From the NCBI GenBank assembly GCA_964291215.2, contig OZ219790.1:864001-928000 (forward strand): 64,000 bases of DNA. The letters are read 5' to 3'. Position 1 is the stretch's first letter. Each line of letters opens with the position of its first letter. The notes beneath the pieces were generated by a model. The model was not told where the DNA came from, made no database searches, and saw only the letters and a list, made by a program, of their open reading frames with translations. The DNA is from Alphaproteobacteria bacterium (GTDB lineage: Bacteria > Pseudomonadota > Alphaproteobacteria > MPNO01 > UBA830). Positions 11,772 through 26,818 of the stretch are shown here, in pieces. Both the position numbers and the translations under genes were made by a program.

Positions 11772-12322
11772 CGGAACGCCTTCCGTTTTTGCTTTATATC
11801 GGCGTCGATGTCTCCTTCGGAGAATGGCGGCAGCAACGCCGTGTTGAGCTGCTTTTCGAGCGCCTGTAAATCATCTGAGGAAACATCATCATCGATGGGA
11901 GCAAAGTAGAACCGTAATACTTGGTGCCAAGTTCCGATCATTCGTGCGATGCGAGCACGCTTTAGGACCTTCTTGGCGTTAAGATAATCCTTATACCGTT
12001 CCCTAAGCGGGCGTTTGGAATCGCGTCCTGCAATTCCGATGTAAAGAACGTACCCATGAGGCGGAAATACATCATTAGTGCTCGAGATCGCGAAGGCGTA
12101 AATGCCTCGCTTATCAGCAGGAACCCTTCCCAACTCTTCTTCGCCGTAGCTGATAGAATCCCACGCAAGGGCTTCAATGGCGAACTCATTCGCCATCATT
12201 TTATCAGGCGACAAGGTAACGGGAACCGTATACTTGTTGATTTCCTCGGCTGCCTCGTTTGCAAAATCTGTCAAGGATTCCAGATCCACCGTCCGTGCCC
12301 TCGCCTTCATTATTTGTGACAT
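11768..12322 (-). CDS. GIY-YIG family nuclease
   Basis: GIYAF...VLYIGIA, conserved Arg (LRERYKDY), Glu helix (ALEKQL), terminal PPF. Confidence 0.7.
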   Translation of the reverse strand: MSQIMKARARTVDLESLTDFANEAAEEINKYTVPVTLSPDKMMANEFAIEALAWDSISYGEEELGRVPADKRGIYAFAISSTNDVFPPHGYVLYIGIAGRDSKRPLRERYKDYLNAKKVLKRARIARMIGTWHQVLRFYFAPIDDDVSSDDLQALEKQLNTALLPPFSEGDIDADIKQKRKAFR

Positions 12323-13149
12323 GCCAGACAGGCTTTGGCCCTGCCATACAGATCATCGATGTCCAGAGGTTCCCGGTCGGGCCGAAGTGGATTGATTCCG
12401 CCGCGTGAACGCATCCGCGCTAGCCTCAGTTCGTGATCGCGTCTGATTTGCGCGATGCGCTCCGATCGTTCCAGCTCTTCGAGAGACTCTCCCTGGCTCC
12501 ACGTGAACGGCGAGCCGTGCTCGACGGCGTTCTTTTCGTAGGCTTTGGCTTCTTCGAAGGCCGCGGGGTGTTGTTCCCTGAGCCGCACCCACTCGATTTT
12601 TTGCTGGAAGAAGCAGAAGGTGCAGCCGCTGCGTGTGCGCCAAGCGTAATACGCTGGCAGACCGAGCCCCGCGCCATCAAGGATATCCAGCACACCCGCC
12701 TTGTCGACACCGGCCTGTTTGAAAGGCAGCCTGATGACGAGGCGGTCGTGCTTCGAAGTGTAGCCTTCGCGATATTCCTCGTCGCTGCGGATCGCGACAT
12801 AGCTGTAGACGATAGTGCCAGCCGCGAGGATCGGTCGGAGCCATTGCTCGAACGGCCGGAGCTTGAGTTGCCGTGTGCACCAGCGCGTCTGGGGTGACGG
12901 AAGAAAGTCGTTGTACTGCTTGAGCCAGAAGTCGAAGTCGCGGTCGGGGTTCAACCGCCGTATCGGCTGTCCGAGAAATCCTTCGAGTTTCCCCAGATAC
13001 TCGTAGACCTCGGGCAATTCCTTGCCCGTGTCCGTAAAGAAGTAATCAATCTGCAACTCGGGATGATGCTGTCTCATATGGACGGCGAGCGCCGCGCTGT
13101 CACGCCCACCGGACAGGCCGAGGACATGTTTCACGGAATCGGACGTCAT
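12310..13149 (-). CDS. sspD: PAPS-reductase family protein, SspD-like
   Basis: PP-loop SGGRDS, RWCT..LK, RSGCTFCFFQ, C-terminal CLACHK; operon context. Confidence 0.75.
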   Translation of the reverse strand: MTSDSVKHVLGLSGGRDSAALAVHMRQHHPELQIDYFFTDTGKELPEVYEYLGKLEGFLGQPIRRLNPDRDFDFWLKQYNDFLPSPQTRWCTRQLKLRPFEQWLRPILAAGTIVYSYVAIRSDEEYREGYTSKHDRLVIRLPFKQAGVDKAGVLDILDGAGLGLPAYYAWRTRSGCTFCFFQQKIEWVRLREQHPAAFEEAKAYEKNAVEHGSPFTWSQGESLEELERSERIAQIRRDHELRLARMRSRGGINPLRPDREPLDIDDLYGRAKACLACHK

Positions 13150-16100
13150 GAAGCGACTCTCCCATTACGTTTCTCTTCCACGGGCGCAGGCTGCTGCATG
13201 TAGCGCGTGCTGAGTTCTGCCAGCGCCGCCAGAATGATGCTGCGGTGACTGTTATCGGCTTTCTCAAGGGCGGCAGCCACGCGCTCGACAAGTTCGTTGA
13301 CGGCGGCGCGGTCGGTGTCGGCAATTTCGAACTCCTCCAGCAGGGGCGCCGGGCGGCCGTCCATGCCGATGACGACGGCAAGGGCCTGCCGTTTGTCGGG
13401 ACGTCCCTTGACGCGCGCATATGTCTCCGTGCGCAGGAACTTCTGCGCCATGTCGGCAAGCTCGATTGCCGCCCGGTCCAGGTCGGGATCGACCCAATCG
13501 CGCGGAGGCTTGTTGGCGGCCAGGCTGGCAATTCCTTCGAAACTGTCGTGAGAGCCATCGAACTGCATGAGCCGACCGACGAAGGCGTCGAGACGGAAGT
13601 CTCCGGCAAGCTGCCTGATGTTCTCTGCGCGCTCCCGCAATTCCGCGAGGGCCTGCGGGGAGCAGTTCGGCACCTGCAACTCTGCGAGCATGAGGTCGCG
13701 CAGGCGATACAGCATGGAGGGATAGGCCTGTACCAGCTCTTCGAGCCCTGCGCGGACGCTGCCGATGACACCGCGCAGGGCGTCCTCATCGCCAAGCGAA
13801 ACGTCTTCGCCCAGCGTTCCGGGGATGTCATCGAACAGGAACTGGTTGGGGTCGTGTGCCCGTTTGAAGAGCTCGCGGATGCTCACGGCATTCGAGGACA
13901 GCCGCATTGTCCGTTCGGTCCACCTCGGAAGCCGGTCGTAGATCGCAACGAGGCCGCGGCCGACATCGATCGGCTTCAGATATGTGAGTTCATTCGTTTC
14001 GTCGAGATCACGCACTATCTGCGCCATACCCGAAAGCAGACCCCGGGCAAGGCCGGTGAGGTCCATCCAGCGCAATTGGACAAAGGCTGCGTCCTTCGCG
14101 AGATAGTCCACGTCCACATCGTCGAATATCGCCCGGAACACGCCGTTCCGATAGACCGCGAGCCTGTCGCGCTGCGACAGGATGAAGGCGACGGCGAGGA
14201 TCGGCATGAGGCCATCCTTGACGCCGAAAGGCGGTTGCCTCCACTCATCGAACAGCTCGGAGATGGCGACCGCGCGATTCGCGTTCTGCTCCACGAACTG
14301 GCTTGCCCATTCCCAAATGGGGCCCAGACGGCATGGATCGTCGTGGCCTGTCGTCGGCGAAACGAATCGCCAGGCATTTTCACTTCGGGCATAGAGGCCC
14401 GTCGCTTCAAGCAGGGACGCAAACAGGCCGCGCTCGGCGGGGAACCCGTCAATGCCGAGACGAGGCGCGCCCTGGTTCAGAACCATGCGTCGAAGGAGAT
14501 TGTTCTGCGCCGCGATGGCGTTGCTGGACGGCTTCCTTCGGTTGAGAAGCTCGTTGTGCAGGCGCGGCGACTTGTCGAAACGGCGATCTGCCAGCTCGGA
14601 GGCAATGCCGTTCAGGTCCGCCTGCCGGAAGCGCTTCGCCCGGTGGCCCTTGCGAAACCACAGGGCGCTGTCGAACGCCTTGTGCAACTCTGTTTCCAGG
14701 ACGGCCTGCAGGGCTGCAAGCCGTGCGGAGACTTCTCGCCGGGCAACGGTATCGCCAGCCAGTTCCGGATGAGCGTCGGCGACGCGGTCGAGAGCCAGCA
14801 GTTCACGCGCGAGCGGCATGATGGTCCAGGATCGCTGGGAAATTCCGACGACCGTGTCCCATTCATCACTGCAACGCGCCGCCTTGCGGCACAGCGCTTC
14901 GGCGTTTCTCCTGCTTTCTCCCCCGGTCGGGATGGTGAGGAGGAACTGACCGATCGCGCCGTTTCTCGGTCCGGGGCCGGTTGTGAATTCAGCGAGTCCG
15001 CCGACGGGAACAATGTTCACGTCGAACCACCGGAGCGCGCCTGTATCGTGATAATGGCGTTTGGCGAGAATTGGCTGAAGTCCCGCCAGGGATTCGAGTC
15101 CCCGGAAATCGACCTCGCCGGTCTCGTCGAGCGCAGCGCGGACGGCCCGGTCGATGTCGAAATCGCTGCCGGCAAATATCGCGCGGGCGTCGAGGAACTT
15201 CTTGAAGATCGTGAATGACCACGTGTCCAGCTGCGTGAGCGTTTTCTCAAGCTCGCTGTCGGAGACCTCGGGGAAGCAGGTTCGCAGAAGCCCGGAATTC
15301 GGAACGAGGCCCGAGTTCTCCTTGAACAGATCGATGACCGCGATCGTCTTGAGCAGGCGCACATGAAGGGCATCCCCGCCGATTGCTTCACATCGCTCCA
15401 GTGCTTCCGCCGCCAGCGCCCATCGGTGCCCGTCGGGAGAGGCAAGGATGGATGGCTCAAGGTTGACGCGCAGGTAGTCCCAAAGCCGCTCCGGGCCGTA
15501 AAGGTGCCTGCCGGAGGCCCTGTTGAGGAAGTCCTGGAATCCGTGTGGCTCGGCGGAGTTGAGGAAGCCGAATATGCTACGCTGGTTCTGCCCGAAACGG
15601 CGCCGCGAAATCGGTCCCAGCAGACACGAGACGACCGGATGCAGTGGCCAGCATGCTTCGAGCACGGCGGCCAGCCTTTCCGCGTCGCGAGGATGCCCCG
15701 GCAGCGAAAGCCCTGCGACGGCGGATGCGAGTGCGCCCGGCTTCGTCGGGCGGTGATCGCTGTCGATGGCGCGGGAGATGAGGTCGATCTGTTCCTCGCC
15801 CGCGGTGTTGACGACGAGATCGACGAAACGGCCCTGTATCTTGGCCCATTCATCGCGCATTTCGTGCGACAGGCGGCGGGCATACTCCTCGAATGCCTGA
15901 TGCAGCACACCGACCATCAGCAAGCGCCCATTGCTCCGGGACGCCGCTTCGGCAAGTTGCTGGAGGATGTAGATGTCGGAGCCGTCCTGGGCCGCGGCTT
16001 CGAGAAACTTGCCCATCTCGTCGATGAAGAGGACGAGCCCGCCATGCGTTGCGGGCTTTTCTGCCGCCGCGCCGGTCAGCGTGGCGATCAGGTTGGCTTC

Positions 16101-16541
16101 GGTCCAGCCGCCCCGCGGTTGGCGAGATACAAGTCCGGCTCGCTTTACAGCTTCGCCGATGACCGCAACGGGGTTGTCGCGCCGGGCAACCACGGGAAGG
16201 ACACGCCAGCCCTTCGAGCCGGCCGGCAATGCCTCCCGGACCGTCCTCGTGACCTTCCGGCCGAAGACCCTGGCAGCTTTTGCGCGCAATCGGGCATTGC
16301 CGTTCAGCAAGGCGCTGAACGCGACGATCAGGCTCGACTTGCCGCTGCCGTAAGGGCCGGTCCAAGTATATGCGCCCTGTCCGGTTTCGGAAACATGCCG
16401 GGCCATCGTCAAGAGAATGTCGGCGAAGGATTGCGGACAGATGAAGCCTTCAAGGCTCGCGGCATCGCCGAAGTCGGAGTCGATGCGGACCGATCGGAGG
16501 AAACGGCGGGCAATGCGGACACGATCGCCGAAAGGCATCAC
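13146..16541 (-). CDS. sspC: Large P-loop ATPase, SspC/BrxC-like
   Basis: Walker A GPYGSGKS, Walker B FIDEMGK, EWAKIQGRF, WPLHP, QNQRSIFGFL; 1131 aa. Confidence 0.75.
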   Translation of the reverse strand: MMPFGDRVRIARRFLRSVRIDSDFGDAASLEGFICPQSFADILLTMARHVSETGQGAYTWTGPYGSGKSSLIVAFSALLNGNARLRAKAARVFGRKVTRTVREALPAGSKGWRVLPVVARRDNPVAVIGEAVKRAGLVSRQPRGGWTEANLIATLTGAAAEKPATHGGLVLFIDEMGKFLEAAAQDGSDIYILQQLAEAASRSNGRLLMVGVLHQAFEEYARRLSHEMRDEWAKIQGRFVDLVVNTAGEEQIDLISRAIDSDHRPTKPGALASAVAGLSLPGHPRDAERLAAVLEACWPLHPVVSCLLGPISRRRFGQNQRSIFGFLNSAEPHGFQDFLNRASGRHLYGPERLWDYLRVNLEPSILASPDGHRWALAAEALERCEAIGGDALHVRLLKTIAVIDLFKENSGLVPNSGLLRTCFPEVSDSELEKTLTQLDTWSFTIFKKFLDARAIFAGSDFDIDRAVRAALDETGEVDFRGLESLAGLQPILAKRHYHDTGALRWFDVNIVPVGGLAEFTTGPGPRNGAIGQFLLTIPTGGESRRNAEALCRKAARCSDEWDTVVGISQRSWTIMPLARELLALDRVADAHPELAGDTVARREVSARLAALQAVLETELHKAFDSALWFRKGHRAKRFRQADLNGIASELADRRFDKSPRLHNELLNRRKPSSNAIAAQNNLLRRMVLNQGAPRLGIDGFPAERGLFASLLEATGLYARSENAWRFVSPTTGHDDPCRLGPIWEWASQFVEQNANRAVAISELFDEWRQPPFGVKDGLMPILAVAFILSQRDRLAVYRNGVFRAIFDDVDVDYLAKDAAFVQLRWMDLTGLARGLLSGMAQIVRDLDETNELTYLKPIDVGRGLVAIYDRLPRWTERTMRLSSNAVSIRELFKRAHDPNQFLFDDIPGTLGEDVSLGDEDALRGVIGSVRAGLEELVQAYPSMLYRLRDLMLAELQVPNCSPQALAELRERAENIRQLAGDFRLDAFVGRLMQFDGSHDSFEGIASLAANKPPRDWVDPDLDRAAIELADMAQKFLRTETYARVKGRPDKRQALAVVIGMDGRPAPLLEEFEIADTDRAAVNELVERVAAALEKADNSHRSIILAALAELSTRYMQQPAPVEEKRNGRVAS

Positions 16542-17521
16542 GCGGCCTCCTTCCCGGCAAGCGCCCCGTAGTCGTCTGGAATCCGGGACAGGATTGACCC
16601 GTCGTCGAGGTCGATGTTGCGTTCAACCTGCCTGAGGCCGGCGGTTTCGGACCACTGCAAGGCGCCGTCCGTTGCCCCGCCGAGGGCGGACAGGCGGTCG
16701 GCGACATCGTTCTCGTCGAAAAGGAATACGCGCCCGGGGCCACCGGGGGCATGTGCAATGGCTTCGAATGACAGGGTAGATGCAGTGGAATACTGTCGCC
16801 AGAAATCCAGGAGCGCATATATGAAGATACCGTTACCCAAGGTTGTCTTCGCCCCGCGCACGAAACGGAATCCGTCTTTCTGGCCAACAGCCTTGATAAG
16901 GCCCAATTCGGTCAGCGGCGATTCAAGTGCGTCGTCGTGGCCCGCATTGCCTGAAGGTTGACGCGCGACATAGGTGCGAATGAAGCAGGCGACATCGTTC
17001 CTGATCGTCTTGCTGGCGGCGCGGGACCACTGGCGGTCCGTTGCAAGACGATCGAGTCTCCTGATCAGTGACTCTCGCTCGAAGGTGACGGCGGGGTAGT
17101 GGTTAAATGCCCAGAACCATGTCGTCTTGTCTGCATGAGCTGCGAACTGCCAATGGATGAGCCACAGCGTTGCAGGATGCTCCATGTACGGGTCAAGACC
17201 TTCGGAGCCGAACAACAGGCGACCGAGTGTCGTCGTGCGAACCGAATTGGCCGCAGGCTCCTCGACCACGCCGGCTGCCTTCGCCCAATGGCGTATGGAC
17301 GCGACCATGTTCCTGCCGACGCCGAAGCGCGCTATGGCCTCTTCTCCCCAACAGGCAGCCCGGTTCTCGGGCCGATGCTCGGTCCCTGCGACTCGGTCGA
17401 ACGCCTTCTTGAGCCATCCGTAACGGAGCGGGAAGGTCTCATGGCCTGAAAACTGCGGGTTGTAGGTGTTCTGATAGAGCGGTCCACGCACCATTCGTTC
17501 CTCGGCTACTGGACCCTGCAT
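16538..17521 (-). CDS. sspB: DUF4007 protein, SspB-like
   Basis: FSGHETFPLRYGWLKK, FGVGRNMVASIRHW, DPYME...TLWLIHW, SPLTELGLI, ETAGLRQ motifs. Confidence 0.8.
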   Translation of the reverse strand: MQGPVAEERMVRGPLYQNTYNPQFSGHETFPLRYGWLKKAFDRVAGTEHRPENRAACWGEEAIARFGVGRNMVASIRHWAKAAGVVEEPAANSVRTTTLGRLLFGSEGLDPYMEHPATLWLIHWQFAAHADKTTWFWAFNHYPAVTFERESLIRRLDRLATDRQWSRAASKTIRNDVACFIRTYVARQPSGNAGHDDALESPLTELGLIKAVGQKDGFRFVRGAKTTLGNGIFIYALLDFWRQYSTASTLSFEAIAHAPGGPGRVFLFDENDVADRLSALGGATDGALQWSETAGLRQVERNIDLDDGSILSRIPDDYGALAGKEAA

Positions 17522-17652
17522 CCAGTGGTTCGACTCTAGCGCACGGCCTGTGCTACGGTCAACGGAAACTGGAGACCTCCGCCAGACGGAGACACAGGGC
17601 CGAATCTCGACCCTGCGGTACCCACCAAATCACGCCAACATATTGTTATATA

Positions 17653-18861
17653 ATGAAAATTGGACAAACGATCTATCTGGACCATCAGGCCACGACGCCT
17701 TTGGATCCGCGCGTCTTGGCCGAAATGGCTCCCTGCCACGGCGAATCGTTCGGGAATCCGCACTCCTCGGATCACAGCTTCGGCTGGCAGGCCGCGCGTG
17801 CGATTGAAGAAGCCGCTGCGCGATTCGCACGGTTCATCGGAGCGGACCCCGACGAAGTCTTTTTCACCTCCGGCGCAACCGAATCCAACAACATGGCGTT
17901 GCTCGGGCTCGGACGCAGGGCCGCCCGGGGAGACCGCCGCCGTATCCTGGTCAGTGCCATCGAGCACAAGTGCGTGCTCGCATCGGTTCGAGCGCTTGAA
18001 GAACAGTACGGGTACGCCGTCGAGCGGATCCCGGTGGACCGACAGGGCCTCGTCGATCTCGAGGCGTTTGACGACATGCTCGGCGAAGACATCCTCGTTG
18101 TGTCGGTCATGGCCGTGAACAACGAAATCGGATCGATTCAGGATATCGAGACCATATCCGATCGTGTTCGTCCGCATGGGATCGTGTTTCATTGCGATGC
18201 GGCACAAGCGCCTCTCGGCATGCCGAGAGGCGCGCTTGCAATGCATGCGGACCTGCTGAGTTTCTCCGGTCACAAGATGTACGGTCCGAAAGGGGTCGGA
18301 ATCATCTTCATCGCGCGCGCGCTGCAAGACCGGATCGAACCGCTGATTTACGGCGGTGGTCAGCAGGACGGGCTTCGCTCGGGAACGCTCCCGGTGCCGC
18401 TCTGCGTGGGCATGGGCGCGGCCAGTCATTTGCTGAACAGCGAAGAAGCGCGAAAGAAACTCGAGGAACTGTCCCTCCGCCGCGACGCTTTCGTGCGTCT
18501 CCTGACAGGTCTGGACCGGTCCGTTCGATCAATCGGCCCCGAAGGCGAGTCACGGCATCCGGGCAATGCAAGCATCTGTTTCCACGGGTTCTCGGCGCAC
18601 GAGATACTCGGGGCGCTTCAACCCCGTCTTGCCGCTTCAACAGGCTCTGCGTGCACATCGGGTATTCCGGAGCCGTCTCATGTGCTGAGGGCGGTCGGCC
18701 TCAACAGTGACGATGCTGAAGCGACCATACGTTTCAGCCTGGGCTTCGGAACGACCGATGAAGACATCGGGCAAGCCGTGGCGCTGATTGAAGAGGTCTT
18801 GGCGAAAATGCTCAAAGCCGGATCGCGGAATGTCAGGCCCAACTTCAACAGTGACGATTAA
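17653..18861 (+). CDS. sspA: Cysteine desulfurase (IscS/DndA/SspA-like)
   Basis: YLDHQATTP, FTSGATESNN, HCDAAQ, PLP-lysine SGHKMYGPKG, catalytic Cys STGSAC; divergent from the DUF4007 operon. Confidence 0.8.
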   Translation: MKIGQTIYLDHQATTPLDPRVLAEMAPCHGESFGNPHSSDHSFGWQAARAIEEAAARFARFIGADPDEVFFTSGATESNNMALLGLGRRAARGDRRRILVSAIEHKCVLASVRALEEQYGYAVERIPVDRQGLVDLEAFDDMLGEDILVVSVMAVNNEIGSIQDIETISDRVRPHGIVFHCDAAQAPLGMPRGALAMHADLLSFSGHKMYGPKGVGIIFIARALQDRIEPLIYGGGQQDGLRSGTLPVPLCVGMGAASHLLNSEEARKKLEELSLRRDAFVRLLTGLDRSVRSIGPEGESRHPGNASICFHGFSAHEILGALQPRLAASTGSACTSGIPEPSHVLRAVGLNSDDAEATIRFSLGFGTTDEDIGQAVALIEEVLAKMLKAGSRNVRPNFNSDD

Positions 18862-18925
18862 AAATATTCGATATCACAACGAGTTATACCGGCACGGCCG
18901 AGTGTACCCACTACATTTCGTTGAT

Positions 18926-19363
18926 TTGCCGTGAAAATTATTGGGGATCGGGCGCGCAAAAACCCCTCCCCGCCAAAGCACTGCTCCCGAGGCGTCCGAT
19001 ACTCGCCATCTGCGGCACCCGTCTTGCGGACCGTGACCGGTAGGCAACCCCGTAAAAGCCCGAAGTCCCGCCCGCGCGGCCGGCACCTGTTTTCATGATA
19101 CGGGGTGGCCGACCCGCCCGGCAATGAAGGTTTTGAGGGGATCAGGCTTTGTGTTCGCGCCATTGCCGTGAAAATTATTGGGGATCGGGCGCGCAAAAAC
19201 CCCTCCCCGCCAAAGCACTGCTCCCGAGGCGTCCGATACTCGTCATCTGCGGCACCCGTCTTGCGGACCGTGACCGGTAGGCAACCCCGTAAAAGCCCGA
19301 AGTCCCGCCCGCGCGGCCGGCACCTGTTTTCATGATACGGGGTGGCCGACCAGCCCGGCAATG
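18926..19363. repeat. Two 201-bp direct repeats (18926-19126, 19163-19363) separated by 36 bp
   Basis: Copies differ at only two positions by eye; both begin TTGCCGTGAAA and end CGGCAATG. Confidence 0.95.
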
Positions 19364-19531
19364 GACGTTTGCCGTGAAACAGATTCGGCCGAAGGGCGCG
19401 CGGAGGGGTTCCAACGCCGTGTTGCGGAGTTGGGGTCGGTGGCCGAGATCGGCGCGGCAGGGACGAGCGTTGGACTTCCCCGATGTGGCCCGTAGCAGTC
19501 CCGCGTTGCCGGCTGGCGTGTTTCAGGGGGC

Positions 19532-20785
19532 TCAGGCGGCCTTGAGTTCTGGCGCGTTGACGGGTGCGATGTAGCCGTATCGTCGGAGCATTCGGATCCA
19601 GCGCGGGGCGTTGCGTTTGACCATCAGAGCGTCGTAGTCGGCGGTGCGGTCGTAGTAGGGCGTGGCGGTCTTGAGGACGACATGGATGATGCGCAGCATC
19701 TTGTGGGCGCCGGCGACGATGGCGCGCTTGTAGCCGCGCCGTGCGGCAAGCGCGCGGTGGTGGGCCTCGAACTGGCATCCTTTGGTTCGGGCGGCGCCGT
19801 GGGCGCACTCGACGAGACTGGCGCGCAGGGTTCTGGAGCCCTTTCGGGTGCGCGCGTTGCGGCGCTTTCCGCCGCTCTCGTTGTTGCCGGGGCACAGCCC
19901 GGCCCAGGCGGCGAAGTGCTCCCTGGAGGCGAAGGCCTCGATATCGGGTCCGATCTCGATCAGGATGGTCGAGGCGGCGGTGCGGTCGATCCCGGGGATG
20001 GTGGTCAGCAGACGGAGCTGCTGCTCCCACGGCGTCATCTGCCCGTCGATCCTGTCAGTGCAGGAGGCGATGCGCGCCTCCAGCGCGTCATGCTCCGCCA
20101 GCAGGTCGCCGAGCATGAAGCGGTCGTTGTCGCCCAGGCTGAGCGAGAGCGCCTCGCCGAGCCCTTCCAGCTTGCTGGCGACATGGCCGGTGAGCGAGGC
20201 AAGAATGACCTCGCGCTCCACGCCCTGCGCCAGGCCGTCGAGGATCCTGCGCCCGTTGAGTCCGAAGACGTCGGAGAGGATGCCGCCGATGCGCACGCCG
20301 GCGCGGTCGATGATCTTCTGGACGCGGTTGCGCACGGTGGAGCGCTGCCTGACCAGAACCCGCCGCTGGCGGCTCAGGGCGCGCAACTCCCGGAACGGCT
20401 CGGGCGGCACATGGGACGGCGTGCAGAGCCCGAACTGGCACACGCAGGCCAGCCATACGCTGTCGGCCACGTCGGTCTTGCGCCCCTTCAACTGCTTCAC
20501 CTGCTGCGCGTGCACCAGGATCGCCTCGATCCCGGCCGCTTCCAGGGCCGCGAAGGGCGCCTGCCAGTAGATGCCGGTCCCTTCCATCACCGCAGCCTCG
20601 ACGCCGTGTGCGCTCAGCCAGGAGACCATCGCCTCCAGACCGCTGGGCAGCGTGCCGAAGCAGCGCGTCTCGACCACCGGCTCGCCCTCGCCCTCGCACA
20701 GGCGAACCGTCGCGGTAATCTCCATCTTGTGCACGTCCAGACTCGCCGCGCGCGCCCGGACAACATGCAAGCCTTCCGTCTTCAT
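19532..20785 (-). CDS. IS110-family recombinase/transposase
   Basis: DEDD residues (LDVHK, MEGTG, KTDVADS), TIPGI, catalytic Ser region PGNNESGG; intact ORF. Confidence 0.95.
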   Translation of the reverse strand: MKTEGLHVVRARAASLDVHKMEITATVRLCEGEGEPVVETRCFGTLPSGLEAMVSWLSAHGVEAAVMEGTGIYWQAPFAALEAAGIEAILVHAQQVKQLKGRKTDVADSVWLACVCQFGLCTPSHVPPEPFRELRALSRQRRVLVRQRSTVRNRVQKIIDRAGVRIGGILSDVFGLNGRRILDGLAQGVEREVILASLTGHVASKLEGLGEALSLSLGDNDRFMLGDLLAEHDALEARIASCTDRIDGQMTPWEQQLRLLTTIPGIDRTAASTILIEIGPDIEAFASREHFAAWAGLCPGNNESGGKRRNARTRKGSRTLRASLVECAHGAARTKGCQFEAHHRALAARRGYKRAIVAGAHKMLRIIHVVLKTATPYYDRTADYDALMVKRNAPRWIRMLRRYGYIAPVNAPELKAA

Positions 20786-20955
20786 CCTCTTCTCCTCATT
20801 GCGCGCTCTCGCCACGATCGCACAGGATCACGATGTGGCATCGCCACGGTGGAGGCGGGGACAGCGGTCGGAAGGACACGCATCCGCCATGCGGGTGCGG
20901 TTCGTTTTGCCGCGCGTCCACGGCCAATGGCCGGGCACAATACGGGGTGCGGATC

Positions 20956-22407
20956 GATCGTGTCCCGAGCCGTGGTGTAAGAGCCTGGCGCCCGTGGCGG
21001 TGTCCGGCGGGTAGGGCCGGTAGGCTCATGCTGCCACGGCGGGCAGCTTGACGGTTGCATTGTCGCTCACGGGAGCGATGGATTCCAGCGTTACGTATCT
21101 GGCTCTCTGGACGGCCCATTCGTCGTTCTGCTCGAGCAGGATGGCACCGATCAGGCGGGTGATGGCGTTCTCGTTGGGGAAGATGCCGACGGTGTTGGTG
21201 CGCCGCTTGATCTCGCCATGGAGGCGTTCGAGCGGGTTTGTGGAGTGCAGCTTGGCGCGATGCGCGGCCGGGAAGGTCATGTAGGCGAGAACATCGTGCT
21301 CGGCCTCGTCCATGATGGCGGCGAGCTTCGGCGCCTTGGGCCTGAGCTGGTCGGCGACCTGGCGCCACTGGGCGGAGGCGCTGTCTGCATCCTCCTGGGC
21401 GAAGGCGGTGGTGACGAAGGCGGAGACGACGCGCCGGCCCTGCTTGCCGGCATGGGCGAGCAGGTTGCGCATGAAATGCACGCGGCATCTCTGCCATGTG
21501 GCGCCGAGGATGCGGGTCGCGGCGGCCTTCAGGCCCTTGTGGTCGTCGGAGATCACCAGCTTGACGCCGCGCAGGCCGCGCCGGGCGAGCGAGCGCAGGA
21601 AGTCGGTCCAGAAGGTCTCGGCCTCGGACGCGCCGATCGCCATGCCGAGCACCTCGCGCCGGCCCTGGTCGTTGACCGCCACCGCGATGGTGACCGCGAC
21701 CGAGACGATGCGCCCGGCCTCGCGCATCTTCACATAGGTCGCGTCCAGCCACAGATACGGCCAGTCGCCCTCCAGCGGCCGGTCGAGGAAGTCGCGGATC
21801 TTGTCGTCGATCTCGCCGCACAGCCTGGACACCTGGCTCTTGGAGATGCCCGACATGCCCATCGCCTGCACCAGGTCGTCGACCGAGCGGGTGGATACGC
21901 CCTTGATGTAGGCCTCCTGGATCACCGCCGTCAGCGCCTTCTCCGCCATCCGCCGCGGCTCAAGGAAGCCCGGGAAGTAGCTCCCCTTGCGCAGCTTCGG
22001 GATCTTCAGCTCGACCGTGCCGGCGCGCGTCTCCCAGACCCGGTCGCGGTAGCCGTTGCGGTGCGTGATCCGGTCCGGCGAACGCTCGCCGTGCCCGGCG
22101 CCCGCAAGGCCCTCAACCTCAAGCGCCATCAGACGCGCGGCCGTGAACCCGATCATCTCGCGAAGCAGATCGGCGTCGGAACTCTTCTCCAACAGCGCCC
22201 GCAGGGTCATCATGTCGGTGGTGGTCATCGTGGTACTCCTCCGGTCGGATGGACTGTGGAAGCCCAACCCTACCGGCACCGCGATGGCCATCCGCTATGG
22301 ATAAGTGGCCCGCCGCCGCCAGACTCCAGACGGTCGCGGCGGCGGGCCACTTACCCACAGCTACCGATGGTGGCTCCAGCTCCTACACCACGCCTGGGGG
22401 CACGACC
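20956..22407 (-). mobile_element. IS256-family element, intact (transposase 21026-22228)
   Basis: [35 protein letters not shown] motifs; imperfect terminal IRs; 9-bp TSD GTGCGGATC at 20947-20955 and 22408-22416. Confidence 0.95.
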
Positions 22408-23039
22408 GTGCGGATCCGACCGCCGGAAGCAGTTTTGGCGTCGGGAACTACGTCACCGATAAAGCAACGCTCACGCGTCCCCGCCTCCGCCATCAGCCAC
22501 CCTGCCACAGCAGAAGCCGCCAAGCCCCTGTTTCATCAAACGGGGCGGCTCAGAACGCAGAGACCATGAAGGTTTTGGGCGTTTGGAGATGCGCTGCGGC
22601 TCGTTGTCTGGTTTCTTTCGCTGCCCCGGGCGCGTCCGGAGCGTTTGATGATCGGGCCGGGGGCAATTTTCGCGCCGATCCGGTGCTCATCGGGACCGAC
22701 CGGGCGCGCGTTTTCCTCCGGCGTCGTGCCGGTGGGTTTTCAGTGGCGCTGTGTGGCGCGGGGCTCAGGCGGTCGAGGGCGTCGGCGGCGGCATGGCGAG
22801 GCCCATACGCCGGCGTGCCGCCATCAGATGCGTGCCGCCGTTGCCGAGCACGAGTGTAATCTGGCGGCCATGGTGGACGACCCGGGCGACGAGGTGGATC
22901 CACATCGCGCGCAGAGCGATAAACCCTCACCATTCCTTCACCCGCTCGGTGAAAACCAGATGCACAACCCCGTTGCGCTCAAATCAGCCTACACAAGCGA
23001 TCAGAACACTCTCCACCCCACCAAAGCTCGCCGATCAGG

Positions 23040-23495: not shown

Positions 23496-24668
23496 CTACA
23501 GGATGTCGGCGGCGATGCTGTTCGCGATTCGCGCGGCCGCCTCGTGCACCGACTCGCGCGCGAGATGCGCATAGCGCGCCGTGGTCTCGACCTGGCTGTG
23601 GCCGAGCAGCTTGCCGATCATCGGCAGGGACTCCCCGAGCGCCAGGGCCCTGGACGCGTAGCTGTGGCGGAGGTCGTGAAGCCGCACGCCCTTGAGCCCG
23701 GCGCGCTCCCGGAGGGTCTGCCAGGCGCCGTCGATGTCGGTCATGTGCGTGCCCGGCCTGTGCCCCGGAATGACCCAGGGATTGCCGGGCCTGCGGGGCA
23801 GCGCCGCCAGCAGCCGCACCGCCGAGGGCGGCAGCGGCACCGCGCGCGGGCCGGTCTTCGCGTCGGCCAACGCCAGCTCGCCCGCGTCCAGGTCCACGTC
23901 GTCCCACCTCAGCGTCAGGATCTCGTTCTTGCGGCACCCGGTCAGCATCAGCAGCCGGATCGCCGTCACCGCGCCCGCCGACGCGCCGCCCTGCGTCTCC
24001 GCCCCGTCCAGCACCCGGCCCAGCTTCTCGAACTCCGCCCCGGTCAGAAACCGCTCGCGGCGTTTCGACGGGTACCTCGTCAACGACCCGCACGGGTTGA
24101 CCCCGTCCGCCACCATGCCCCAGCCCTCGGCCAGACGGTACATGTGCGAGAGCGTTGCCACCGCCATGTTCGCCATCGCGGGCCGGTCGCCGAGACCGTG
24201 ATGCAGCTCCAGGACATCGCGGGGCTCGACCGCCGCCAGCGCCAGACCGCCGAGCCCGGGCACGATGTGCCGCTCGACCACGCTGCGCGTCGTCCTCGCG
24301 GTCTTGGGCTTGCAGCGCACCGCCACATGCTCCTCGAGGTAGCGCGCCGCGAGGTCGGCCACGGTCGGCCCCTGCGCCAGCTTCGCCGCCAGCGGCTCCG
24401 GCACCGGGTCCTCGCCCGCCTTCACCCGCGCGATGACCAGCGCCGCCCGGCGCCTGGCCTCCTCCGCGTTGAGCACCCCGTGACGGCCCACCGTGACACG
24501 CCTCGGCCCCCCGGGTCCCCGCGCCTGCGCGACATAGACCCTGCCGCCGCCGGGATAGGCCCGCACCCCGAAGCCCTTCAGCTCACGGTCCCAGAACACC
24601 GTGTCCCGCTCCACTTCCAGCGCCGCCACCATGCGGTTGGAGATCGTCCGCCTGCGCGTTCCCCTCAT
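23496..24668 (-). CDS. Tyrosine integrase with N-terminal arm-binding domain (copy 1)
   Basis: FWDRELKGFGVR arm domain; catalytic TGCR, KTG, HDLRHS, LGH, RYAH. Confidence 0.92.
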   Translation of the reverse strand: MRGTRRRTISNRMVAALEVERDTVFWDRELKGFGVRAYPGGGRVYVAQARGPGGPRRVTVGRHGVLNAEEARRRAALVIARVKAGEDPVPEPLAAKLAQGPTVADLAARYLEEHVAVRCKPKTARTTRSVVERHIVPGLGGLALAAVEPRDVLELHHGLGDRPAMANMAVATLSHMYRLAEGWGMVADGVNPCGSLTRYPSKRRERFLTGAEFEKLGRVLDGAETQGGASAGAVTAIRLLMLTGCRKNEILTLRWDDVDLDAGELALADAKTGPRAVPLPPSAVRLLAALPRRPGNPWVIPGHRPGTHMTDIDGAWQTLRERAGLKGVRLHDLRHSYASRALALGESLPMIGKLLGHSQVETTARYAHLARESVHEAAARIANSIAADIL

Positions 24669-25846
24669 GCCGCGCTCCGCTCCGGCGCCACGTGAACGCC
24701 GATGCTCTCGCCCACCCGGCCCGCCGCCGCCCTCTCCGCGTCGCGCACCAGATGCGCATAGCGCGCCGTCGTCGCCACCCGGGAATGACCCAGCAGCCGC
24801 CCGATCATGCTCAGGCTCTCCCCCAGCGCCAGCGCCCGGCTTGCATACGAATGGCGGGCGTCGTGAAGGCGCACATCCCTGAGGCCGGCTCTCGCGGTGA
24901 TGCGCCGCCAGTAGTAGTCCAGGTTGACCAGATGAGTATCCCGCTTGCGGCCCGGCACGATCCACGGACTGCCGTCCGACCGGTCGATGCCGTCGAGCAC
25001 CTTCACCAGCGGCGGGGTCAGCGGCACCATGCGCGGCCCCGACTTCGCGTCCCTCAACCGCAGTTCGTTCGCCACCCGGTCCACGTCGTCCCACCGCAGC
25101 GTCAGGATCTCGCTCTTGCGGCAGCCGCTCAGGATCAGCAGCCGGATCGCCGCCACCGCCTGCGGCCACGGCGCCGATTTCGACGCCGCCTCGCGCAGCG
25201 CCTCGCCCAGACGGCGGTATTCTTCCGGCGTCAGGAAGCGCTCGCGCGTGTGTTCCCGGTAGTAGCGCAGCGACCGGCACGGGTTGGAGCCGCGCGGCGC
25301 CAACTCCCAGCTCTCCGCCAGCTTGTACATCTTCGACAGGACCGCCGCGGCGGTGTTGGCCATGTAGGGGGTGCCACGCAGCCGGTGGTGCAGCCCGGCC
25401 GCGGCCTCCCGCCCCACATCCCCGAGCGCCCTGCCGCCGAGCGCCGGCAGGATGTGCAGGTCCAGCACCGTCCGGTAGAGCGCCGCCGTCTTCGGCTTGC
25501 AGTGCATCGCCACATGCTTCTCCATGTAGCGCGCCGCCAGCCCGGCCACGGTGAGCGCCGGCGCCGCAGGCGCCGGACAGGGCTCCTCGCCCCGCTTGAT
25601 CCGGTCGATCGCCGCCGCCGCGCGCGTTCTTGCCTCCTCGACGGTGATCTCGCCATGTCTGCCGAGCCGGGCGCGCTTCAGCCCGCCCGGCCCCCGGGAC
25701 TGGACCACGTAGACCTTGCGCCCGGTGGCATGGATGCGGACGCCGAAGCCCGCGAGGTCGCGGTCCCAGAAGGTGGCGTCGTCGCGATCGACGCTGAGCG
25801 CATCGACGGTGCGCTTGGTGATCCTGAGAGTGCTTCGCTTGGGCAT
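24665..25846 (-). CDS. Tyrosine integrase with N-terminal arm-binding domain (copy 2)
   Basis: FWDRDLAGFGVR; SGCR, KSG, HDARHS, LGH, RYAH; stop overlaps the start of copy 1 (ATGA). Confidence 0.92.
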   Translation of the reverse strand: MPKRSTLRITKRTVDALSVDRDDATFWDRDLAGFGVRIHATGRKVYVVQSRGPGGLKRARLGRHGEITVEEARTRAAAAIDRIKRGEEPCPAPAAPALTVAGLAARYMEKHVAMHCKPKTAALYRTVLDLHILPALGGRALGDVGREAAAGLHHRLRGTPYMANTAAAVLSKMYKLAESWELAPRGSNPCRSLRYYREHTRERFLTPEEYRRLGEALREAASKSAPWPQAVAAIRLLILSGCRKSEILTLRWDDVDRVANELRLRDAKSGPRMVPLTPPLVKVLDGIDRSDGSPWIVPGRKRDTHLVNLDYYWRRITARAGLRDVRLHDARHSYASRALALGESLSMIGRLLGHSRVATTARYAHLVRDAERAAAGRVGESIGVHVAPERSAA

Positions 25847-26029
25847 GGCGTCATTCCCGTGATCAAACCGCACATGAGCGGCATCGAACCGGGGCGCATT
25901 CAAACGCATCCATGGCGCAGATGCAAGAGGCGAAAGCGACCGGGTATTTCAGGTAATCATAGGGAATACAAGGCATTATCATCTTCGGAGGTAGCCAGGC
26001 GCATGAGTGACATGGTCGAAAAAATGTAA

Positions 26030-26818
26030 CCTGTCTTTGAGTCGCGCAGCCGTATCTCGCCGGTGTCGAAGTTGAGGTCGTCCTACCGCAGGCCGAGGAT
26101 CTCGTTGCGCCGGCAGCCGGTCAGCACGAGAAGATAGATGGCGGCCGCCGCATGGGGGGACGCCCGGCGGGCGCGGTCCTGAGCGCCTCGCCGGGAGAGT
26201 TCCTCGCGGGTGAGGAAGCGCTCGTGCTTCTCGACCCTGAAACGGGGCACGCTCCGGGCCGGGTTGCGCCCCGAGGGACACCAGCCCCACTCGTCGGCCA
26301 GATTGAACATCTTGACCAGAATGTCGGCCGCCCGGTTGGCGACGGTGGGGCTGTGATGCAGCGCGTCGTGGAAGCGCAGGATGTCCTTGTGCCCGACCTC
26401 GGCGACGAGACGCCCGCCGAGTGCGGGCACGATGTGCTTGCGCAGCGTGATCCGGTAGCGGGAGACGGTGGCCGGCTTGCAGTGCATCTCGACATGTTCG
26501 CGGAAGTAGCGGTCCGCGAGGTCGGCGACGGTGGGATCGTTGGCCGGGTCCTGCGGGGGCTGCCCCGTCTTGATGCGGACGATGACCTCGGCGGCCTCCT
26601 TGCGGGTCGGCGGAGAGCGGGTTGCCGTGCTCGCCGAGGGTCACGCGTCTGGAACGGCCGAAGGCTCGCGTCTGGACGACGAAGACCTTCTTGCCGCTCG
26701 CGTAGACGCGCAGGCCGAAACCGGGCAGCTCGCGGTCCTAGTAGACGGTGTCCCTGCCATCGGCGGGAAGACTGTCGACGATACGCTTGGAGAGGGTGCG
26801 GTACTGGCGTTGCGTCAT
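26030..26818 (-). pseudogene. Third integrase paralog, disrupted and C-terminally truncated
   Basis: DRELPGFGLRVY, MHCKPAT, LTGCRRNEILGLR; premature stops and frameshifts; ends near SKTG. Confidence 0.85.

What the first reader, a model, noticed from the sequence alone, without database searches (positions are those of the whole stretch)
18926..19380. Tandem non-coding 201-bp units carrying IS110 end motifs: mini-IS110s or bridge-RNA cassettes
Seen: two near-identical units separated by a unique 36-bp spacer, 5 bp from the IS110 downstream end. Each unit begins TTGCCGTGAAA, as does the IS110 end at 19369, and both have GGGCGCGC 13-14 nt later. Each unit also has ATACGGGGTG near its other end, found again upstream of the transposase (20940-20949), where it abuts a -10-like hexamer on the minus strand (TATCAT in units, TATTGT in the IS). 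The interiors are otherwise unlike the IS110 flanks. Known: IS110 recombinases are guided by bridge/seek RNAs encoded in their non-coding ends. Inference: these are non-autonomous guide-only elements, or an expanding array of end/guide cassettes that could supply alternative specificity to the neighbouring recombinase.
Basis: partly seen in the sequence, partly recalled or inferred. Interest (0 to 1): 0.7.

Follow-up and report, generated by a model that had tools for sequence, protein, structure and literature searches.

The report
Guide-less miniature IS110 hitch-hiker elements
The two repeats are gene-less 206-base miniatures made of the two ends of the neighbouring RNA-guided jumping gene, with no match to its guide RNA, and they likely spread by borrowing that gene's enzyme and guide, a kind of hitch-hiker already described.

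Summary
The repeat is real (204 of 208 bases identical). Each unit is a 204-bp element between TT cores. The genome holds six full copies, one diverged copy and one end fragment; relatives occur in other genomes carrying this IS110 family.

The unit is the IS110 left end (about 50 bp) joined to a diverged copy of its downstream non-coding end. The family's bridge-like RNA lies upstream of the transposase, and its loop tracks the insertion target across 12 guide variants. A model of that RNA scores intact copies above 200 bits and the two units at most 3.4.

Unit insertion sites fit the resident IS's guide (14 sites, p=5e-5). The 36-bp 'spacer' is 5 bp of unit end, the core and 29 bp of an IS1634 end. 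The '5 bp gap' is unit 2's own left end.

So 'mini-IS110' is supported and 'guide cassette or specificity array' is not. The published precedent is MITEPpu9/ssr9 beside ISPpu9. This scan has also noted such elements before on other DNA. Transcription and mobilisation were not tested.

The parts
18926..19133 (-). Mini element copy 1: core (19132-19133), left end from 19131, body, right end to 18928, core (18926-18927)
   Evidence: an empty allele joins 18925 to 19131 in contigs of 3 of 4 runs
19095..19124 (-). Sigma70-like promoter consensus inside the left end of copy 1 (TTGCCG-18-TATCAT); same in copy 2 at 19361-19332; transcription untested
19134..19162 (.). Host part of the 'spacer': 29 bp of the end of an IS1634-family element, continuous with 18859-18925 in the empty state
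19163..19370 (-). Mini element copy 2; its left end (19364-19368) is joined through the core (19369-19370) to the IS110 right end, a donor-type junction
19371..19531 (-). IS110 downstream non-coding (right) end, homologous to the mini element's interior; carries the conserved motif GGGCCACATCGGGG
19532..20785 (-). IS110-family recombinase gene, 417 aa from the ATG
   Evidence: Pfam PF01548 + PF02371; NCBIfam NF033542
20865..20960 (-).
   Evidence: model R1, positions 72-168, 92.3 bits
20956..22407 (-). IS256-family element inserted into the bridge-like RNA, 9-bp duplication at 20947-20955 and 22408-22416
22409..22494 (-). 5' (target-loop) half of the bridge-like RNA, with target guide GACGCCA-AA at 22442-22434
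   Evidence: (60.5 bits)
22520..22575 (-). True IS110 left end (starts 22573; core 22574-22575), homologous to the first ~50 bp of the mini element

Best explanation
The units are gene-less 206-bp miniatures consisting of an IS110 left end joined to a diverged IS110 right non-coding end, likely born by internal deletion of the bridge RNA and recombinase gene and likely moved in trans by the intact IS110's recombinase and bridge RNA. Shown by calls: shared ends and AA/TT core, dispersed copies, an empty allele, no match to the family's bridge-like RNA, and insertion sites that fit the IS's guide. Inferred: excision as a circle joined at the core, integration at sites ending CCA-AA, and supply of enzyme and guide by the intact copy at G000:C1:480-482 kb, because the neighbouring copy's guide RNA is split by IS256. 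The local cluster would be two separate events. Copy 1 inserted into an IS1634 end. Copy 2 is fused to the IS110 right end, as this family stacks at its own ends; a later rearrangement left the composite with unmatched flanks.
For: Eight BLAST matches in the genome (6 full, 1 diverged 177-nt, 1 left-end fragment), with different flanks and one head-to-tail pair. Empty allele in the genome and in contigs of 3 of 4 runs. Profile searches: unit positions 1-52 match the IS left end; the IS right-end profile covers positions 54-211 of two relatives (E 1.2e-9, 1.1e-7); the unit profile hits 11 of 14 IS right ends at E<0.02. A right-end motif is kept in 14 of 14 IS and 10 of 11 minis. The upstream RNA folds with covariation (12 of 50 pairs with two-sided changes). 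Its loop matches each lineage's target flank: 3.59 of 4 bases against 1.35 permuted, 12 guides, p=5e-5. Fourteen independent mini sites match the resident guide at 2.36 of 4 against 1.11 background, p=5e-5, best of 9 guides at that width. A mini in G047 sits at the same target site as the window's IS110 left end (L140). Tandem IS-IS junctions occur in 7 of 78 IS loci, all in one genome. Mini and IS fall in the same two genomes of the family sample.
Against: No mobilisation experiment. For the window copy itself, the direct match to the IS right-end profile covers only the last 40 nt (9.2 bits); interior homology comes through relatives. Over 7 bases the target match is weak (p=0.028) and another guide scores slightly better (p=0.008); a second guide is also significant at 4 bases (p=0.001). 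Kin are not independent in the guide test. One genome (G039) has a degenerate mini and no bridge hit. 5 of 10 IS-bearing genomes showed no mini, with only 150 candidates scored each.
Confidence: 0.82

Rival explanations
1. The unit is a mobile mini element that also expresses a ~160-nt small RNA from its left-end promoter, which would modulate the IS110, as proposed for Ssr9. This adds to the best explanation rather than replacing it.
For: Promoter consensus inside the left end; -10-like hexamers closer to consensus in minis than in IS copies (alignments). Core motif conserved across diverged minis. One small 3' hairpin with some two-sided changes. Precedent Ssr9 (PMC12288879).
Against: Weak consensus structure: -10 and -15 kcal/mol on the two strands against -55 for the bridge-like RNA. 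Single-sequence folding no better than shuffles (z 1.17 and -0.22). No excess pairing to the cognate bridge RNA in 6 of 6 pairs (z -1.1 to 1.3). The conserved motif is equally kept in the IS right end, so it may act as DNA.
Confidence: 0.15
2. The units are guide-only cassettes, or an array, giving the neighbouring recombinase alternative target specificity.
For: Adjacent to an IS110 whose own guide RNA is interrupted. Internal promoter consensus. A CGCCAAA word like the IS guide lies on the plus strand of the unit.
Against: Model R1 gives at most 3.4 bits in the two units and at most 8.9 bits over other minis, below chance hits of up to 17.9. The bridge HMM has no hit at E<=10 in 11 minis. 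The two units differ at only 4 positions, so they carry no varied guide. The CGCCAAA word is opposite to the promoter, varies among copies and is absent in relatives. Insertion sites follow the IS guide.
Confidence: 0.03
3. The doubled arrangement is an assembly artefact or a local duplication of one insertion.
For: No listed contig bridged the two units (table cut, other samples).
Against: The copies differ at 4 positions, have different left-end variants and different junctions. Both junction types recur elsewhere in this and other genomes. The spacer is single-copy target DNA on one side only.
Confidence: 0.03

Closest known systems
MITEPpu9 (ssr9 module) of ISPpu9, IS110 family, Pseudomonas putida KT2440 (PMC12288879; read: abstract, introduction, sections 13, 17, first part of 18, term passages)
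   Same: Gene-less element bounded by copies of the IS110 left and right end boxes and a 2-bp core. Found directly downstream of the transposase, alone elsewhere, and sometimes in tandem. Proposed to hitch-hike on the IS transposase.
   Different: MITEPpu9 has a shown small RNA complementary to the IS's antisense RNA, and shown minicircles; neither was tested here. This element keeps the IS's right non-coding end rather than 5'-UTR-related sequence, has an AA core, and abuts the IS in 1 of 8 matches in this genome rather than 5 of 8.
IS621-type IS110-group elements with a left-end bridge RNA (Durrant et al. 2024, PMC11208160; read: term passages only)
   Same: The parent element has RuvC-like DEDD and Tnp domains and a long left end holding a ~185-nt structured RNA whose loop covaries with the target.
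   Different: The parent also has a long (~160-nt) conserved right end. Its clearest target guide lies on the 3' side of the loop and reads like the left flank in transposase-sense orientation. The mini lacks the RNA altogether.
IS1111-group elements with right-end bridge/seek RNA (PMC11208160 passages)
   Same: Long right non-coding end, which the mini retains.
   Different: In this family the covarying guide is in the left end; the right end shows almost no consensus structure (-3 kcal/mol).

Membership tests
Non-autonomous IS110-family mini element (MITEPpu9 type) | Both ends homologous to those of an IS110 element, with the same 2-bp core at both junctions | tested here: met
Non-autonomous IS110-family mini element (MITEPpu9 type) | No transposase gene | tested here: met
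   204-bp body; tblastn with the recombinase hits no unit
Non-autonomous IS110-family mini element (MITEPpu9 type) | Several dispersed copies with different flanks, and an empty allele | tested here: met
Non-autonomous IS110-family mini element (MITEPpu9 type) | Target preference shared with the helper IS | tested here: met
   (strong over 4 bases, weak over 7); shared site L140
Non-autonomous IS110-family mini element (MITEPpu9 type) | Recombinase-dependent circle formation and transposition in trans | not testable with these tools
   needs PCR or an assay; donor-type junctions at 19364-19375 and on contig C2 are only consistent with it
Non-autonomous IS110-family mini element (MITEPpu9 type) | Encodes a small RNA (as ssr9 does) | tested here: inconclusive
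   promoter consensus only; weak consensus structure
Bridge RNA / seekRNA cassette | Homology to the cognate bridge RNA in sequence and structure | tested here: not met
Bridge RNA / seekRNA cassette | Loop sequences that match and covary with target and donor sites | tested here: not met
   met for the IS upstream RNA; no such covarying word in minis
Bridge RNA / seekRNA cassette | Binds the recombinase | not testable with these tools
   needs RNA pull-down
Repeat-spacer guide array (CRISPR- or TIGR-like; features recalled) | Constant repeats separated by variable acquired spacers | tested here: not met
   one spacer, which is unit end plus flanking IS1634 DNA; other tandem pairs have no spacer; no Rfam match better than E 0.65

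The most novel reading that the evidence does not exclude
This IS110 subfamily needs more than its terminal boxes. A motif 105-125 bp inside the right end (GGCCAC..CGGGG), kept in 14 of 14 IS and 10 of 11 minis, is roughly complementary to the invariant CCCCG arm of the bridge RNA donor loop. It acts either as a distal donor site read by the RNA, or, once transcribed from the mini's promoter, as an anti-bridge small RNA that throttles the parent element.
Probability: 0.12. Interest if true: 0.6.

Novelty: new member of a known kind. Interest (0 to 1): 0.22.

Why it matters
It removes a tempting claim (a guide array for a bridge recombinase) and replaces it with an ordinary one. The useful by-products are a natural minimal donor of about 206 bp for an IS110 subfamily I did not match to a named element, a table of 12 natural guide-target pairs for its bridge-like RNA, and a testable lead that an internal right-end motif is needed for mobility.

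Tried and rejected
Rfam scan of 18700-21200: nothing better than E 0.65. Folding of the unit on both strands: no better than shuffles. Pairwise alignment of the unit to the IS ends: only the upstream end just exceeded 300 shuffles (50.5 against a maximum of 48); an apparent antisense match to the guide loop did not. Antisense pairing of mini RNA with cognate bridge RNA: no excess in 6 of 6 pairs. The idea that the right end holds the guide (IS1111 style): rejected. No RNA holder listed among 23 runs; this says nothing on expression. No contig bridged the two units. The 113 matches in G043 are not 113 transposition events: the 25 examined all sit at one site inside an IS66 end. Likewise 8 of 9 tandem pairs in G047 share flanks (29 of 38 matches fetched), so they were counted once. 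Tandem junctions were left out of the target tests. Model R2 matches G042 and G043 partly by construction, and R1 was built from L015 and kin of L044. Literature searches gave PMC12288879 as the only listed paper on an IS110-associated MITE; paywalled papers and ISfinder were not searched. No supplements were read; those of PMC12288879 may bear on how alike MITEPpu9's interior is.

Full report
Observation. The two copies are at 18926-19133 and 19163-19370 and differ at 4 of 208 positions. BLAST against the whole genome gave eight matches: six full copies, one 177-nt copy at 81% and one left-end fragment. Their flanks differ, and two on contig C2 are head to tail with a 206-bp period. Comparing junctions fixes the element as 204 bp between TT cores (AA in transposase-sense orientation). 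So the 36-bp spacer is 5 bp of end, 2 bp of core and 29 bp of host DNA, and the 5-bp gap before the IS110 is unit 2's own end, joined through the core to the IS right end.

The spacer. Its host part and the DNA left of unit 1 are continuous at G000:C1:2540380-2540420, next to a reading frame that matches the C-terminus of an IS1634 transposase (E 2.4e-24, a fragment below the family cut-off). Contigs of 3 of 4 public runs, all of one study, show the same empty joint. No listed contig bridged both units, so the exact arrangement rests on the assembly.

The parent element. The neighbouring gene is an IS110 recombinase. A second, intact copy in the genome shows that the element extends about 330 bp upstream of the ATG. 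In the window this stretch is interrupted by an IS256 with a 9-bp duplication, and the true left end is at 22573. Seventy-seven related loci have a conserved upstream region of about 185 nt that folds with covariation. A loop word ending AAAC matches the left flank of each lineage's insertion sites: 3.59 of 4 bases against 1.35 in permutations, 12 guides, p=5e-5, with kin not independent. A second loop carries CGGCAAA, which matches the right-end donor and changes to CAGCAAA in the lineage whose end does. This is the covariation logic used to define bridge RNAs in PMC11208160 (passages read); binding was not tested.

What the unit contains. A covariance model of the bridge-like RNA scores intact IS copies at 206-211 bits and the two halves in the window at 92 and 60. 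It scores the two units at most 3.4 bits and other minis at most 8.9, below chance hits. A sequence profile finds nothing in 11 minis. By contrast, unit positions 1-52 match the IS left end, and the IS right-end profile covers positions 54-211 of two relatives (E 1e-9, 1e-7), though only the last 40 nt of the window copy directly. A motif 105-125 nt inside the right end is kept in 14 of 14 IS and 10 of 11 minis. The simplest origin is an old internal deletion (inference).

Distribution. The unit was found in 2 of 41 relatives by DNA search (own genome included), and the recombinase in the same two among 26 family genomes; G004 has five diverged matches. With a profile, 5 of 10 genomes reached through IS loci had matches. 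Among 78 genomes of the order, 4 had a mini and 7 the bridge-like RNA; 3 of the 4 had both. High counts in G043 and G047 are largely passive copying inside other elements.

Mechanism. At 14 independent mini sites in G000 and G047 the last three flank bases are C (10 of 14), C (12 of 14) and A (10 of 14), the end of the resident guide GACGCCA. The match is 2.36 of 4 against 1.11 at random AA sites (p=5e-5), the best of nine guides at that width; over seven bases it is weak and not the best. One G047 mini occupies the same site as the window's IS left end. The IS itself forms end-to-end junctions in 7 of 78 loci, all in one genome, which offers an explanation for unit-unit and unit-IS stacks. 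I infer mobilisation in trans by the intact copy's recombinase and RNA. Circles, transcription and binding are untested. The composite of unit 2 and IS110 has flanks from two different loci, which points to a later rearrangement.

Rivals. A guide cassette is not supported (see above); a guide from a distant clade would escape my model, but the two units carry no varied segment. A regulatory small RNA remains open: there is a promoter consensus, but weak structure and no excess pairing with the bridge RNA.

Known systems and novelty. PMC12288879 (abstract, introduction, sections 13, 17, part of 18) describes MITEPpu9: IS110 end boxes around a small-RNA gene, downstream of the transposase, alone, or in tandem, forming minicircles. 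This element is a new member of that kind. I also read the first fifth of bioRxiv 10.1101/2025.10.25.684509 and the abstract of PMC13626964 for mechanism; neither describes minis in what I saw. Earlier AI notes of this scan report similar minis in other genomes (unchecked), and none for this sequence. Interest 0.22.

Noticed in passing
   Followed up: partly
window 20947-22416: IS256 splits the bridge-like RNA between its target and donor halves, so this copy could at most make a target-loop-only RNA; such RNAs support partial transfer in another IS110 (bioRxiv 10.1101/2025.10.25.684509, first part read).
   Followed up: partly
mini left ends in G000 and G047: The left-end variant ACGTC goes with a target ending in C at 4 of 5 sites, other variants at 0 of 9 (Fisher p=0.005, seen after the fact); possibly two helper elements, or a shifted core.
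   Followed up: partly
window 20940-20949, 19098-19107, 22535-22545, 19479-19492: CCCCG occurs in the donor-loop arm, about 28 bp inside the left end, and (as its complement) about 110 bp inside the right end, across recombinases down to 61% identity.
   Followed up: partly
window 12310-18861: SspD, SspC, SspB and a divergent SspA: a phosphorothioation-type defence cluster (PADLOC). The IS1634 end begins about at the sspA stop codon.
   Followed up: no
L097 and 24 other loci of G043: A mini sits inside the 3' end of an IS66 element and appears to have been amplified with it (113 matches in that genome).
   Followed up: partly
window 23496-26644: Three tandem open frames on the minus strand that look like tyrosine integrases (motifs recalled, not searched).
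   Followed up: no
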